Assembly (NCBI GenBank): GCA_000002435.2
Contig: CM018792.1
DNA: 64,000 bases
Strand: one strand, 5' to 3'
From: Giardia intestinalis
Lineage: Eukaryota
The position numbers were made by a program. Shown piece by piece: positions 3,001 through 9,000 of this stretch; position 1 is the stretch's first letter; each line of letters starts with the position of its first letter.

Positions 3001-6000
3001 ACGATTAACTCGCTTATGGATGGAGTCACGCGCATTAGCAACAAGCTCAGAGACATTGGAATAAGTTTTAGGCAACGACAGATCTCCTCAAGAGAGCGAA
3101 TCGCGGATGTGGTGGGCAGGATATTCGACGAAACCATTATCGAAGTCTACAAAAAGCCCCTCACGGAGGACTGAAGCAGCGAGTAAGATCATTGTGCCTG
3201 GGAGTACCCTTGATCATCCCTTTGTGATAGCACGGTGAGAAGTCAAAGAATGAACTCGCACAAAGCGTTCCCAAGGCAAAGGTGAAATATATGCGCTCGT
3301 CCATCTGTGGCCAAGGAAAGTTGACAAGATGCAAAGTGTTTATGTTTCCAGTAACAGACTCCCCCTGTCCCAAGACATGGAACTGAACATCTTTAGGGAC
3401 AGATTCTTGAAAGATATAAGACGTTCCCCGGTTAATACAAACTACACTCTGGTCCCAGAGGAGGGTGCCTCTGCTAACGAGTAGAGGGATTAATTCTTGT
3501 ACATTGCCCTCATTTCGGACCTGCAAAGAGAACACGCCATCACCTAGGGGATTTCGTGCCTCCAAAACTGTTGGTGGGATTACTCTAGTCACAGTAAGTA
3601 TTATATTAGAGGAAAAACGCAGCACAGGTCTACCTGTCACAGCGCATCGGGGTCCTGAATGAAGCCCAGGAAAGGGGGCCTTGAATGGCGATATGAACTT
3701 GTCATTCTCGGTCACCCATCCGGGGACTCCCTTGTTGATCGTAGCTGCCAGTTCACGTATATCTGCCATACTTTGGCAAATGGTGTAAACGGTGTATAGC
3801 GGCGTGTTGTCAGCGACGTGTAAGGGCGTGAGATTTCCGCCCAGTAAGGCATATTGCCCCGAGCCTAGACCAGGCTTCTTGTCTGCTGCCATGATAACAA
3901 CTCCATCTACAGGAGGGTCGCCTCGCCATACTTCCACATCTCGAAGTGCAACTCTAAACAATGATAGGTCACCTGCTGTACCCATTGCATCACCTACTGA
4001 CATAATGCGACCTCCCAATAGACAAGAGCACTCGATGAGCCGAGTAATGTTTGTCTCTGATGGCATTATCAAATTTTAGCGTAAGAAAAGGTGACAAACC
4101 GAGAACGAACGCAGAGCTGCTAGAGATTTGCATGAGCTTATTAAGTAGCGCGCATTTACAAGTGCCGTGATATTAAGAAGGTAAGGCACTTTCAAGGCTT
4201 TAATTTAAACTGACAAGGTATTGGAAACACTGGAGCTAATGGCTGTAGCGGCTGTCTCAGCTGCCCTTCTGGAAAAGACTCTCAGAAGTGCTCGTCGTGT
4301 TTTAGACAATCCACGATAGAACATACTAACCGTCGCCCCCCACGACCTTTGAAGCCATCCCTGTGCTTCGCCAGACGATGAGGGAGACGTGTTTGTGGTT
4401 ATATCCTTACTATTATGCTCTAGACTTACTTGTGGAGCATGTTGGACTTCCTCTGTGCAATTGGTAGTACACCCCTCGGGCTTCTTAGAAACTGTCCTCG
4501 TGGCCGACTTAGATGCTGCACGCTTAACTATTGACTGTGGCACCTGCAGTCCTTGAGTAAGTTGACCCAGCACACCTGCTTTTTTAGCAAAGTATTCCTC
4601 TATTTTTGTTCGCTTGACAACAGGGGCACTTGCGGCTGGTCTCATAATCTTAGGATGGCGAGGAGTAATGGAAGGTACGGGCCGAGTCTCAGGGACAGCA
4701 TTCTCTATCCCTTTGAGGAAAAGGTGTATGGTTTGTTGATTTTGCTTCTGTGCATATGCTGCAGCTGCCCTTACATCATCTGCTACTACACTCTGACTCT
4801 TCTCTATCAGCTTTTTCACCACCACAAGGCGCCCTGCCCGGATGGCATGAAAGAGCGCCGTCTCGTTATTGTTATCCTTCATGAAATCCATATATGGGCA
4901 GAGAAACTCTACTATTTGAAGATGGCCGCACTGTACTGCTAGCATTAGCGCCGTGGTTCCGTCTCGGAGAACATAGCAACATTCTCTCTCAATAAGAAGT
5001 TCGCACACCTTCAAGTTATTGGCACATGCGGCATACATCAGGGCTGTGTATCCATCCGAGTTTCCCAGCGTGTACTCAAAGTAGAGCAGTGCTTTGACAA
5101 TGTCTAGTTGATTGAAGTAGGCCGCAAGCATAAGACCCGACTCACTCAGGCTATTCACCTTTGCCTTGCATTTTGCAATATTGTCTCGTACAAACTGCAA
5201 GTCTCCGAGCTGGCAGGCCGTTAGCCAGGCCTCGAGATCGTCAGTCATTTCGTTTTTAAACCGGGCTTTGAGAAAGCCGTGTGAAGTATCCATTCCCTAC
5301 TATTCTCTTACCACCCTATGCTTATGTTACTGATTGGCAAGGACTCTGTACGAAGGTCTGAGCATCTTCACCTCTAACAATAAGAAGCCGGCCAGAAAAA
5401 AATCATGCTTTTCATCTTGGCGCTCCTGGGACTCTTATTATCAGATACTCCAGCATGGTGTCTTGGGGACCAAGTTCTGGGCGTATGGAGCCTGCAGTTT
5501 ACTGACTTTAAGTACTCAGGAGGGAACGGGACAGACAGATTTGAGTGCCCAGCCAATATAGCAGCTACTACTACGAAGAGGATACGACTGCTGGCTCCCA
5601 ACATTGCAATCAACGAGCAAACGGGCGCCACGGGCACTTGGACCATGGCGTACACGGAGGGCCTCGAGATACGCCTTAACGGTCTTAATTATCTGTTCTA
5701 CTTTGCATGGAAGGAGTATCCGCTGGAGGGTAGGGTGATGGTCAATTCTTCTTGCTGGCTATCAGCGCCAGGCATGGGGTGGGTCAAGAAGGACGGAATA
5801 GGGAATGCATCCCAGGCTTGTCTCTATGCGGAGCTTATTAGCGCGGACTCCAGCACGCTTTACAACATTAGGGACGAGAATGCACCGGGACCAGTGAACC
5901 CGACAGACCAGACAAGTCAGGGAGAAGCCTTATTATCGCGCCACGCGACCCTACCTTCGAGGAAGCTTCCAGTTCCACTACCTACAGGGGCTCACTATCG

Positions 6001-9000
6001 GAAGCTTCTCTCTGCTAACAAGCTCAGATATGCCAAGCGTGAATTTCGCAGGGAATTCTCGCACAATCTTTTCGGATTTGGGTCTGAATCTGAGACACGT
6101 AATGTACCGTATAAAGGCGATACTCTTCCGGATGACTTCGACTGGCGAGATGTCAATGGTGTCAGCTACATTCCTGGGGTCTTGGACCAAGGCGCTTGTG
6201 GCTCTTGCTTCACCTTTGGCGCAGTGCAGGCTATGAATAGTCGCATCATGATAGCCACCAATAGAACAGATCCTGTAGGTACGAAGACAATCCTGTCCAC
6301 TGAGCACGCTTTAGATTGCAATGTATACAGTCAGGGCTGCGACGGGGGCTTTCCAGAGCATGTCCTGAGGTTTGCAGAGACCAACGGGATAATGACAGAG
6401 GACGATTACTACATACCATATACTTCGGGGACGGACGGAGTAACGCGAGAGTGCAAGACATCTCCTGGCTCCAGGCGCTACTACTTCACGGCAGGCCAGC
6501 AGTTGGGTGGCTACTATGGAGCTGTCACCGATCCGGTTGAGATGCAATGGGAGCTCTACAGGCACGGTCCCTACCCTGTTAGCATATATGTCGATTCTGA
6601 TGGATACTTCTCCAGAGGGGATCTTTACGGTCCAGCGGACAATCACGAAACGGTTGATTCAGACGACCCCGAACGCCACTACTTCATCAGTGAGGTGAAC
6701 CATTGTGTTCTGCTCATAGGCTGGGGCACATTTGCAAACGGAACAAAGTACTGGATCATCCTGAATTCATGGGGTGAATCATGGAATGACCGGGGGACAA
6801 TGAAGATAGCAATGGGCACAAATGCATATGGAATAGAGTCATCGCCGACAACGCTGTACTGGATTCCTCATAATCCAGTTAGCAGCCAGCCCCAGGTGCA
6901 CATAAGATTTATTCTGCGCGCCCTTTTGTTCCTTGTCGCTGGGTTATGTGGACTTTCAGTCATCGGGCTCCTGATCGCTATTTGCGTAGTTAAGTCCCGC
7001 GGGACAAAATACCGTCCAATAATTGCATAAAATCACTTCCATCTCAACACTTGCCCTTGTCTATCGCTCTTCTGAGCATCCTAGACATCTATTTTCACCA
7101 AGCAAGATTCCCGTTCGCACGTTGTAAACACACACACACACACTTTCCCGCGAAGTTGAGCCGGTAGGTCAGAAAAGTGTAGAGCTAGATTTACTTGCAG
7201 ATGGCTCATATTTCGACCATTATGTCAAGATCATTAGAAGCAGCTACCTGCCCCGGAAGCGAAACGGGTATGTCTGCGAAGTTTTCTTCATCAATCTCCG
7301 CCATTAGGTTCGCTAGGTCATTAGCAATTGCTGAGGCCTTGTCTCTATCGCCTTCATTAAGCTGTGTAAGGAAATCTGCGCTCATTTGTTCATGCTCACG
7401 AATATTGCTCAGCAGATCTGCGGCCTGGTCTCCCATGGCAGCAGTGTTGTCAAGCATCTTAGTTGCCACTGTAGCAGACATCTTAAGCTCTATCTGCTCT
7501 CTGCGTGTTTCAAGAGAAGCAAGGACGGTAGAAAGTTGGTTCACGACTTGCGACGAAGTCTTTATCTGGCTATTGACGTTTTGCATAAGCTTCAACTTTC
7601 TCTCGGCTCCATCTTTATCATTTTTCTTGAGAAGCTCCTTGGCCTCCTCCCTCAAGGATGTGACTTTGGCTTGCTGCAGGGCAATTTCAGCCTCTTTGTC
7701 GGCTATCCCCTTGGTCATCTTCTCGATCTCCTTCTTGACGGTATCGAGCGCTTCCTTTGTCTTCTTGTCGTCATTGCCATCCTTTGTCTTTCTCTTGAAC
7801 ATTTTCTTTTTTAAATACTTGTCTTTGAGAGCAATTAACTAATTTTTTGGTTTGCTTGTTAAGCAAAGGGCTGAACGCAAATCGCTGGGACAGGCGTCGT
7901 CGTGTAGCCGTGTTGCGTAAGGGATAATACTCTTTCTTATGTGCAGTCTATGGCTTATTTATTCGGACAATCAGGAGATTTTTTAAGAGAGGCCCTCGGC
8001 ATTTTATTTTCTATGAGTGCGGCAGCAGATGCTAAAAGAATCAAAGCACTTGACGCGGCCATCGCTGAGAAGCAGAAGAAAATTGAGCACTTGCGCAAGA
8101 AGTGCGCCACAGTCTTCCTGGGGATAAAAACGCTTTTATCTCAAGGGAAGGAAGACGAGGTGGAGCAACTTAAAATCGATCTAACCTTTATAAAAGAAGA
8201 CACACAGAACCTGAAATACGACATCTATGAGCTCAATATGGAGAAGCAATATCTACAAGAAAAGATTGAGTCTCAGAGAAAAGACAAGCACAAGAAAAAG
8301 TCCTCTTCGAAAGACGGAGACCTCGGTGAGATAGAGGAGAGGATTGCTGCCCTGTTGAAGAGCTCTGAAAAGTCAGCTGATGCTCAAGAGCAAATGGAAA
8401 GGATTGAGATTGAACAAATGGGGATGGAGGCTTTTAAAAAGAGCATGAGAGAAACAAATCCAGCAAAACGACAGGAGCTTGTTGGACTGTACAAACTATT
8501 ATGCAATGAACTGGACATCCCTATTGATGAGAACTGGCTTATGACTGCGTTTTGACTTTTATATCTAAGTAAACTGGGGATCTATACGCATGCTGACGAC
8601 CTGCCTGTGTCATAAAATTAATTAGTCCGATCTCATGAAGGCCAGGAGTCGCAACATCCTTAGCATCATCGAAAACTCTCTCTTTTGGTGCCAGTACAGT
8701 AATGTGCTTACTGAGATACGTCAAGAGTACGGTTTTCTGCCCCATTCGTCTCTGAAGCGTTACAAAACAATATTGGCACTTCACGAAACAACCGAACGGA
8801 TAAGTAAGGAGATACATACACTATCTAATAGACGAGCAGCAGTGCCTAGCGCGGATAACCCCGCCACAGCTGACCGCCTAGTCTATCTTTGTAGACAGCT
8901 AATAGCTTACCAAAGAGAGAAGGTGGCACATGCCAGCGCAGCACTCCTGGAGCTTAGGCAGGCCCAGAACTCCATTGCCTATTGTAATCTAAAGCATGCA

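What the first reader, a model, noticed from the sequence alone, without database searches (positions are those of the whole stretch)
5405..7030. Cathepsin C (DPPI)-like protease predicted to be a type I membrane protein
The protein has the complete DPPI architecture. After a signal peptide comes an exclusion domain beginning with the conserved N-terminal Asp (DTPAWC...LGVW, GLEIRLNGLNYLFYFAWKEY). Then comes a papain catalytic domain with an intact Cys/His/Asn triad. But it ends in a 23-residue hydrophobic helix followed by KSRGTKYRP. Metazoan DPPI is a soluble lysosomal tetramer. A membrane-tethered exopeptidase would be unusual. It could sit in peripheral vacuoles or at the surface, for example processing VSPs or cyst-wall proteins.
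Basis: partly seen in the sequence, partly recalled or inferred. Interest (0 to 1): 0.65.

Follow-up and report, generated by a model that had tools for sequence, protein, structure and literature searches.

The report
Giardia ESCP, a known membrane-anchored cathepsin C

Summary
The ORF at 5405..7030 (+) exists as described (541 aa). It has a 13-residue signal peptide, a cathepsin C exclusion domain starting at Asp14, a poorly conserved linker/propeptide, and a papain-type domain with Gln262/Cys268/His433/Asn454 intact. It ends in one strongly hydrophobic C-terminal helix (~506-529) and a basic 12-residue tail, KSRGTKYRPIIA. Its exact sequence is XP_001709706.1 / UniProt A8B4V5 (Giardia intestinalis WB). 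It differs at 2 of 541 residues from AAK97078.1/Q95WU9, "encystation-specific protease". The chloride-site Tyr323 and tetramer Cys331 equivalents are not conserved (the Tyr323 loss is already published). A syntenic orthologue in an unidentified Giardia-like genome looks catalytically dead but keeps the anchor and an FRPI tail.

The parts
5405..7030 (+). Complete coding sequence of Giardia ESCP / dipeptidyl-peptidase I (GL50803_14566), 541 aa plus stop codon
   Evidence: ORF listing. Exact-sequence match to XP_001709706.1 / KAE8303782.1 / UniProt A8B4V5. 539/541 identical to AAK97078.1/Q95WU9 'encystation-specific protease'.
5396..5404 (+). A-rich stretch (AAAAAAATC) directly before the ATG. 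Consistent with the very short 5' UTR and A/T-rich initiator typical of Giardia genes (inference from general knowledge).
   Evidence: Sequence read. The function is inferred and was not tested.
5405..5443 (+). Signal peptide, residues 1-13 (MLFILALLGLLLS). Cleavage before Asp14 would expose the Asp1 equivalent.
   Evidence: Hydropathy segment 1-21. Asp14 aligns with residue 1 of mature rat and human DPPI. The cleavage site itself is inferred.
5444..5830 (+). Cathepsin C exclusion domain, residues 14-142 by Pfam (the beta-barrel extends to about residue 157 in the model)
   Evidence: PF08773 E 4.2e-16. The model has beta strands at 26-157 with pLDDT about 80-93. Foldseek top hits 1jqp/3pdf cover both domains with TM-score 0.87-0.88 normalised to the target.
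5885..6118 (+). Linker/propeptide region, residues 161-238. It is poorly conserved, predicted disordered, and presumably excised on activation as in other DPPIs.
   Evidence: pLDDT below 50 for 161-199 and 205-238. The region is gappy and lineage-specific in alignment A1. Excision is inferred by analogy.
6125..6850 (+). Papain-family (C1A) catalytic domain, residues 241-482
   Evidence: PF00112 E 3.3e-42. Alignments to DPPI heavy and light chains.
6206..6208 (+). Codon of the catalytic Cys268 (CGSC motif). The oxyanion-hole Gln262 lies at 6188-6190.
   Evidence: Gln262 is an invariant column and Cys268 a nearly invariant one (90% or more; only P0008 departs) in alignment A1. Residues verified.
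6701..6703 (+). Codon of the catalytic His433. Asn454 lies at 6764-6766.
   Evidence: H433 is invariant and N454 nearly invariant in alignment A1. Verified.
6920..6991 (+). Single transmembrane helix, residues about 506-529 (ALLFLVAGLCGLSVIGLLIAICVV)
   Evidence: KD19 maximum 2.74 against at most 1.08 in the rest of the protein. Model helix 497-532 with pLDDT 75-84. The same feature is present in all 10 diplomonad-clade homologues. Published as a type I membrane protein.
6992..7027 (+). Cytoplasmic tail, residues 530-541 (KSRGTKYRPIIA), net charge +4
   Evidence: The positive-inside rule favours N-terminus in the lumen and C-terminus in the cytosol.
7010..7021 (+). YRPI, a YxxPhi tyrosine-based sorting motif (residues 536-539)
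   Evidence: Read directly from the sequence. Identical in four Giardia-lineage homologues P0001-P0004. [quoted passage not shown]

Best explanation
This is the Giardia intestinalis (WB) gene for ESCP / dipeptidyl-peptidase I (GL50803_14566), a cathepsin C homologue that is a type I membrane protein. A 13-residue signal peptide takes the protein into the ER, and cleavage before Asp14 would create the Asp1-type N-terminus of the exclusion domain (inferred). The exclusion domain and the papain-type catalytic domain (Gln262, Cys268, His433, Asn454) face the lumen. The poorly conserved segment of about 80 residues between them is presumably removed on activation (inferred by analogy). [quoted passage not shown] One C-terminal helix holds the enzyme in the membrane. 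The 12-residue cytosolic tail presents YRPI, a YxxPhi signal that binds the mu subunit of AP-1 and directs the protein from ER exit sites to the lysosome-like peripheral vacuoles (published experiments, not tested here). During encystation it has been proposed to process cyst-wall protein CWP2. That role is contested, and the cathepsin B-like GlCP2 is now favoured.
For: Exact identity to XP_001709706.1/A8B4V5 and a 2-residue difference from the ESCP record AAK97078.1/Q95WU9. Both Pfam domains score above their gathering thresholds. Full-length alignment to rat DPPI starts at Asp1. The catalytic residues align with those of the other DPPI homologues: Gln262 and His433 are invariant, Cys268 and Asn454 nearly invariant in a 19-sequence alignment. 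Only two hydrophobic segments exist, the signal peptide and residues 497-533. The tail carries +4 charge against +1 for the luminal flank. The AlphaFold2 model shows an exclusion beta-barrel, a papain fold and one long C-terminal helix. Foldseek ranks DPPI 1jqp and 3pdf first with TM-score 0.87-0.88. [quoted passage not shown] 2003 title 'membrane-bound cathepsin C activity' (cited in PMC11285859); ESCP listed as a known PV protein and recovered in the PV proteome at one unique peptide (PMC3986054).
Against: Nothing contradicts identity or topology. There are four caveats on function. (1) The chloride-coordinating Tyr323 of human DPPI is Gln366 here, and the tetramer-linked Cys331 is Val374 (the Tyr323 loss also in PMC8836896), so chloride dependence and tetramer formation may not apply. 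(2) The proposed CWP2 cleavage is an endoproteolytic event, which fits poorly with an exopeptidase, and a review reports that GlCP2 is now favoured. (3) The primary papers (Touz 2002, 2003, 2004; Thirion 2003) were not in the library, so their content is known here only through citing papers. (4) The 111-bp upstream intergenic region has no C[TA]ACAG Myb2-type box, so the sequence gives no sign of encystation-specific transcription.
Confidence: 0.95

Rival explanations
1. The C-terminal hydrophobic stretch is a GPI-attachment signal. The mature enzyme would then be lipid-anchored, or released, and would not be a transmembrane protein.
For: A C-terminal hydrophobic segment alone is compatible with a GPI signal.
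Against: GPI signals end with the hydrophobic stretch. Here it is followed by a conserved, basic 12-residue tail with a YxxPhi motif that is identical in four Giardia-lineage sequences and present in another form (YEQV, YVKI) in Hexamita. The literature reports that the tail motif is needed for AP-1 binding, which requires the tail to be exposed to the cytosol.
Confidence: 0.02
2. In the cell the protein acts mainly as an endopeptidase, for example cutting the 39-kDa CWP2 precursor to 26 kDa. This would happen because the exclusion domain is displaced or lost after processing, so the DPPI-like exopeptidase mode is not its main activity.
For: ESCP was originally proposed as the CWP2-processing enzyme. 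Removing the exclusion domain from mammalian DPPI gives a monomeric endopeptidase (PMC8836896). The chloride-site Tyr323 and the tetramer Cys331 are not conserved, so the enzyme departs from the mammalian one in several respects.
Against: Asp14, the exclusion-domain fold and its packing against the catalytic domain are conserved and modelled with confidence. A membrane-bound cathepsin C (dipeptidyl peptidase) activity was reported in the same organelles. The CWP2 role has been reassigned largely to GlCP2.
Confidence: 0.12
3. The gene model is an artefact: a soluble DPPI gene read through or fused in frame to an unrelated hydrophobic sequence.
For: None found.
Against: It is a single uninterrupted ORF. 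The same 541-aa product is recorded on 107 contigs and in independent Giardia isolates, and the cDNA-derived ESCP record has the same C-terminus. The extension of 84-101 residues after the NSWG motif, ending in a TM helix, is conserved in all nine diplomonad-clade homologues that keep that motif, and the tenth (P0008, motif lost) has the same C-terminal anchor.
Confidence: 0.01

Closest known systems
Giardia lamblia ESCP (encystation-specific cysteine protease; GL50803_14566; GenBank AAK97078.1, UniProt Q95WU9 / A8B4V5)
   Same: It is the same protein. The window ORF is an exact match to XP_001709706.1/A8B4V5 and is 539/541 identical to the original ESCP record. The type I topology, YRPI tail, AP-1-dependent sorting and peripheral-vacuole location are all published.
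   Different: There are two substitutions relative to the cDNA-derived record, S403F and C434F. These are presumably isolate or sequencing differences.
Mammalian cathepsin C / dipeptidyl peptidase I (MEROPS C01.070; PDB 1jqp, 1k3b, 3pdf)
   Same: The order of parts is the same: signal peptide, exclusion domain starting at Asp1, excised propeptide, then a papain-type domain. Gln/Cys/His/Asn/Trp and Phe278 are conserved. The predicted fold superposes on 1jqp and 3pdf with TM-score 0.87-0.88.
   Different: The mammalian enzyme is a soluble lysosomal homotetramer sorted through its glycans, and it ends about 33 residues after the NSWG motif. The Giardia protein continues for 84 residues into a TM helix and a YxxPhi tail. 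Tyr323 is replaced by Gln366 and Cys331 by Val374. Sequence identity is only about 30%.
Type I lysosomal membrane proteins sorted by YxxPhi tails (LAMP/LIMP family; Giardia GlVps receptor with YQII)
   Same: Both have a short cytosolic tail with a tyrosine-based motif close to the C-terminus that is recognised by an AP complex mu subunit.
   Different: In those proteins the luminal part is a structural glycoprotein or a cargo receptor. Here the hydrolase carries its own anchor and sorting signal, so it needs no receptor.
Apicomplexan DPPI homologues (Plasmodium DPAP1-3, Toxoplasma CPC1-3)
   Same: They are protist DPPIs that keep Asp1 and the catalytic residues and are predicted or shown to be monomeric.
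   Different: The paper read here describes large insertions in them and mentions no membrane anchor. None of the 21 full-length non-diplomonad DPPI homologues recovered here has a C-terminal hydrophobic segment, but whether that set included apicomplexan sequences was not established.

Membership tests
Cathepsin C / DPPI (papain family C1A with exclusion domain) | N-terminal exclusion domain (Pfam PF08773) preceding the catalytic domain | tested here: met
   PF08773 at residues 14-142, E 4.2e-16, 59.8 bits against a cut-off of 27. The beta-barrel is modelled at pLDDT 80-93. DPPI structures are the top Foldseek hits and cover both domains.
Cathepsin C / DPPI (papain family C1A with exclusion domain) | Asp1 as the first residue of the mature exclusion domain, directly after the signal peptide | tested here: met
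   Asp14 follows the 13-residue hydrophobic leader and aligns with residue 1 of 1jqp and 3pdf. It is conserved in 18 of 19 aligned sequences. The actual signal-peptidase cleavage site is inferred.
Cathepsin C / DPPI (papain family C1A with exclusion domain) | Papain-type catalytic residues (Gln228, Cys234, His381, Asn403, Trp405 in human numbering) | tested here: met
   Gln262, Cys268, His433, Asn454 and Trp456 are present. PF00112 E 3.3e-42.
Cathepsin C / DPPI (papain family C1A with exclusion domain) | Chloride site in the S2 pocket: Phe278 | tested here: met
   Phe316 in DGGFPEHV aligns with human DGGFPYL. PMC8836896 agrees.
Cathepsin C / DPPI (papain family C1A with exclusion domain) | Chloride site in the S2 pocket: Tyr323 hydroxyl | tested here: not met
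   The aligned residue is Gln366, and the position varies (Q, L, P, T or A) among the diplomonad homologues. [quoted passage not shown] This is a property of most DPPIs, not what defines the family.
Cathepsin C / DPPI (papain family C1A with exclusion domain) | Homotetramer (free Cys331 and the conserved subunit interfaces of Amorphea DPPIs) | tested here: not met
   The Cys331 equivalent is Val374. PMC8836896 concludes that oligomerisation is likely restricted to Amorphea. The real oligomeric state cannot be determined with these tools.
Cathepsin C / DPPI (papain family C1A with exclusion domain) | Dipeptidyl-aminopeptidase activity | not testable with these tools
YxxPhi-sorted type I endolysosomal membrane proteins | Cleavable signal peptide, a single TM helix near the C-terminus, and a short basic cytosolic tail | tested here: met
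   The only two hydrophobic segments are 1-21 and 497-533. Model helix 497-532. The tail has charge +4 and the luminal flank +1.
YxxPhi-sorted type I endolysosomal membrane proteins | YxxPhi motif in the cytosolic tail | tested here: met
   YRPI at residues 536-539, six residues after the end of the helix. It is conserved in P0001-P0004, and Hexamita homologues have YEQV or YVKI.
YxxPhi-sorted type I endolysosomal membrane proteins | Motif-dependent binding to an AP complex mu subunit and delivery to the lysosome-like compartment | not testable with these tools
   Reported experimentally for this protein (AP-1 and peripheral vacuoles) according to PMC6115752 and PMC3423367.

The most novel reading that the evidence does not exclude
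The membrane-anchored DPPI of diplomonads may have a second role that does not need catalysis, for example as a receptor or scaffold that cycles to the peripheral vacuoles. The lead is P0008, the syntenic orthologue in an unidentified, GC-richer Giardia-like genome. It has lost Asp1, the catalytic Cys and the Asn/Trp, yet it keeps the whole fold, the TM helix and an FRPI(VA) tail. The anchor itself is conserved in every diplomonad-clade homologue recovered, while the tail motifs differ (YRPI, YEQV, YVKI, or acidic tails without Tyr).
Probability: 0.1. Interest if true: 0.4.

Novelty: already known. Interest (0 to 1): 0.1.

Why it matters
A lysosomal hydrolase that carries its own transmembrane anchor and YxxPhi signal, and so needs no sorting receptor, is unusual. 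It was one of the first pieces of evidence that the minimal endomembrane system of Giardia uses AP-1 and tyrosine-motif sorting. That significance was recognised and exploited experimentally more than twenty years ago. This finding therefore adds nothing new about the Giardia protein, apart from showing that reading the sequence alone recovered the published biology. They are the clade-wide conservation of the anchor and a probable pseudo-enzyme orthologue that keeps it.

Tried and rejected
1. I tried to read the primary papers: Touz 2004 (PMC452563), Touz 2003 (JBC doi) and Touz 2002 (JBC doi). None is held, so the published facts are cited through reviews and later papers.

2. I considered a GPI signal in place of a TM helix and rejected it because of the conserved basic tail after the helix.

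3. I looked for a Myb2-type encystation box (C[TA]ACAG, either strand) in the 111-bp upstream intergenic region and found none. I also looked for a canonical Giardia polyadenylation signal, AGTRAAY, within 175 bp after the stop codon. There is no exact match, only TGTAAAC at 7123. Neither result bears on the conclusion.

4. I tried to identify the organisms behind the unnamed homologues P0005 and P0008 through their contigs. Only SRA run numbers were returned, with no organism names.

5. Paralogues elsewhere in the Giardia genome could not be searched, because no eukaryotic genome collection is available. PMC8836896 speaks of Giardia 'paralogs', while PMC13315228 speaks of a single cathepsin C gene. 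This remains unresolved.

6. The Asp14-to-Cys268 distance in the model could not be measured, because model coordinates are not exposed to the scripting tool.

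
Full report
**Observation**

The window has an uninterrupted ORF at 5405..7030 on the + strand, ATG to TAA, encoding 541 residues. These are the leader MLFILALLGLLLS followed by DTPAWC, the strings LGVW and GLEIRLNGLNYLFYFAWKEY, and a C-terminal hydrophobic stretch followed by KSRGTKYRPIIA.

**Domains and fold**

- Pfam finds the cathepsin C exclusion domain at residues 14-142 (E 4.2e-16, 59.8 bits against a gathering score of 27).
- Pfam finds Peptidase_C1 at residues 241-482 (E 3.3e-42).
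- Among solved structures the best sequence matches are rat DPPI 1jqp (E 6.6e-45) and human DPPI 3pdf. In both alignments query Asp14 pairs with residue 1 of the mature enzyme.
- An AlphaFold2 model built on a 19-sequence alignment (mean pLDDT 67.5, pTM 0.69) shows four parts:
  - a confident beta-barrel at about 26-157;
  - a disordered segment at 161-238;
  - a papain-type domain;
  - one long helix at 497-532 (pLDDT 75-84).
- Foldseek against the PDB ranks 1jqp and 3pdf first (E about 1e-28, TM-score 0.87-0.88 normalised to the target), with both domains aligned. All other papain-family hits cover only the catalytic domain.

The refutation test [quoted passage not shown] therefore fails.

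**Catalytic and accessory residues**

In a 19-sequence alignment (diplomonad and animal-type DPPI homologues, some from unnamed metagenomic sources), Gln262 and His433 are invariant. Cys268 (CGSC motif), Asn454 and Asp14 are conserved in at least 90% of sequences.

- Phe316 corresponds to the chloride-site Phe278 of human DPPI.
- The chloride-coordinating Tyr323 corresponds to Gln366.
- The tetramer-linked free Cys331 corresponds to Val374.

[quoted passage not shown] It also concludes that oligomerisation is probably restricted to Amorphea (PMC8836896). That paper never uses the words "membrane" or "transmembrane".

**Topology**

No dedicated predictor was available, so I used hydropathy.

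- With a 19-residue Kyte-Doolittle window, only two segments exceed 1.6. They are 1-21 (the leader) and 497-533 (maximum 2.74). The highest value elsewhere is 1.08.
- The core ALLFLVAGLCGLSVIGLLIAICVV (506-529) has the length of a membrane span.
- The 12-residue tail after it has net charge +4 and the luminal flank +1, as expected for N-terminus in the lumen and C-terminus in the cytosol.
- The tail contains YRPI (residues 536-539, nucleotides 7010-7021), a YxxPhi motif.

The refutation test "no transmembrane helix" is therefore also not met, within the limits of these methods.

**Identity**

- The exact sequence is on record as XP_001709706.1 / KAE8303782.1 / UniProt A8B4V5, "Dipeptidyl-peptidase I", Giardia intestinalis ATCC 50803 (WB clone C6).
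- It differs at two positions (S403F, C434F) from AAK97078.1 / Q95WU9, "encystation-specific protease".
- The neighbouring genes fit a Giardia chromosome: ankyrin-repeat proteins, a PP1-type phosphatase, and a VSP gene in a GC-rich block.

**What is already published about this protein**

| Source | What it says | Call |
|---|---|---|
[quoted passage not shown] A figure legend describes ESCP-HA in the peripheral vacuoles. | 8 |
| PMC3423367 | Calls it "membrane Cathepsin C" and "the lysosomal membrane protein ESCP". Cites Touz et al. 2003 (J Biol Chem 278:6420) and 2004 (Mol Biol Cell 15:3053). | 9 |
| PMC11285859 | Cites Thirion et al. [quoted passage not shown]
| PMC3986054 | Lists ESCP (Gl14566) among known PV proteins and recovered it in the PV proteome at relaxed stringency. 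| 42 |
| PMC13315228 | ESCP was first thought to process the 39-kDa CWP2 precursor; the cathepsin B-like GlCP2 was later highlighted for that role. | 15 |

I could not read the primary papers themselves.

**Mechanism, with shown and inferred steps**

- Shown here by computation: the domain order, the intact catalytic residues, the Asp1 equivalent, the single C-terminal membrane span, the basic tail and the YxxPhi motif.
- Inferred:
  - signal-peptidase cleavage exactly before Asp14;
  - excision of residues about 160-240 on activation;
  - dipeptidyl-aminopeptidase specificity imposed by the exclusion domain;
  - probable lack of tetramer formation and possibly altered chloride dependence.
- Contested: the role in cyst-wall protein processing.

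1. The anchor is a clade trait, not a Giardia oddity.
   - All ten closest homologues have a C-terminal hydrophobic segment (KD19 2.3-3.5). They comprise the Giardia lineages P0001-P0004, three Hexamita inflata proteins P0007/P0009/P0010, and the unnamed P0005/P0006/P0008. In the nine that keep the NSWG motif, the protein runs 84-101 residues beyond it.
   - None of the 21 other full-length exclusion-domain homologues has such a segment (KD19 at most 1.24, usually 31-33 residues after NSWG).
   - Tails differ: YRPI in Giardia, YEQV or YVKI in Hexamita, and acidic tails without Tyr in P0005 and P0006.
2. P0008 comes from a 4.1-kb contig of run SRR30592944 (58% GC) and is the positional orthologue.
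   - Its divergent upstream neighbour is 39% identical to the ankyrin gene at window 4205-5293.
   - Its convergent downstream neighbour is weakly similar to window 7206-7802 (21% identity, E 6e-05).
   - It lacks Asp1 (AAPRC in place of DTPAWC), the catalytic Cys (CNSS in place of CGSC) and Asn/Trp (DPQ in place of NSW). It keeps His, the TM helix and an FRPI(VA) tail.
   - It looks like a pseudo-enzyme that retained its anchor. This rests on one metagenomic or SRA contig and was not followed further.

**Verdict**

The feature is the well-characterised Giardia ESCP, so it is already known. Interest is low for a discovery scan. The most novel reading still open is a non-catalytic role for the anchored protein, hinted at by the dead orthologue. 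It is speculative (about 0.1).

Noticed in passing
L001:491-1930 (protein P0008; Logan contig SRR30592944_140257): This is the syntenic orthologue of ESCP in an unidentified, GC-richer (58%) Giardia-like genome. It has lost Asp1 (AAPRC), the catalytic Cys (CNSS in place of CGSC) and Asn/Trp (DPQ in place of NSW), but it keeps the catalytic His, the C-terminal TM helix and an FRPI(VA) tail. It is probably a pseudo-protease that retained its membrane anchor. Synteny rests on the upstream ankyrin gene (39% identity) and a weak match of the downstream coiled-coil gene.
   Followed up: partly
Proteins P0001-P0032 (homologues of window 5405-7030): The C-terminal hydrophobic anchor is present in all 10 diplomonad-clade DPPI homologues, including three named Hexamita inflata proteins, and in none of 21 other exclusion-domain homologues. 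The tail motifs vary: YRPI, YEQV, YVKI, FRPI, or acidic tails without Tyr. The 2022 DPPI evolution paper (PMC8836896) does not mention any anchor.
   Followed up: partly
window 42000-50000, ORF 44277-46805 (-): This block is GC-rich (57-62% against about 46-48% elsewhere). It holds an 842-aa variant-specific surface protein gene (Pfam VSP, E 3e-137). Long stop-free ORFs run on the opposite strand (45150-46835 and 45158-46792), probably a by-product of the composition.
   Followed up: partly
window 15447-27080 (-): A very large ORF of 3877 aa has no Pfam match at E <= 1e-5. The neighbouring large ORFs at 36908-41152 (1414 aa) and 8635-11055 (806 aa) also have no Pfam match. They may be lineage-specific Giardia proteins.
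   Followed up: no
window 50309-55657 (-): A 1782-aa ORF whose only Pfam match is an IQ calmodulin-binding motif near residue 1310 (E 4.4e-10).
   Followed up: no
window 4205-5293 (-) and 27708-31013 (-): Two ankyrin-repeat proteins. The first is transcribed divergently from ESCP and shares a 111-bp intergenic region with it (5294-5404). That region has no C[TA]ACAG Myb2-type box.
   Followed up: partly
window 7130-7145: A short (CA)n run lies in the 3' intergenic region between ESCP and the convergent 198-aa coiled-coil ORF at 7206-7802 (-). There is no exact AGTRAAY polyadenylation signal after the ESCP stop codon, only TGTAAAC at 7123.
   Followed up: no
window 6611-6613 and 6704-6706 (codons 403 and 434): The genome sequence has Ser403 and Cys434, where the original ESCP record AAK97078.1 has Phe at both positions. 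Cys434 directly follows the catalytic His433. The orthologues P0002-P0004 also have Cys there, so the Phe in the older record may be a sequencing error or an isolate variant.
   Followed up: partly
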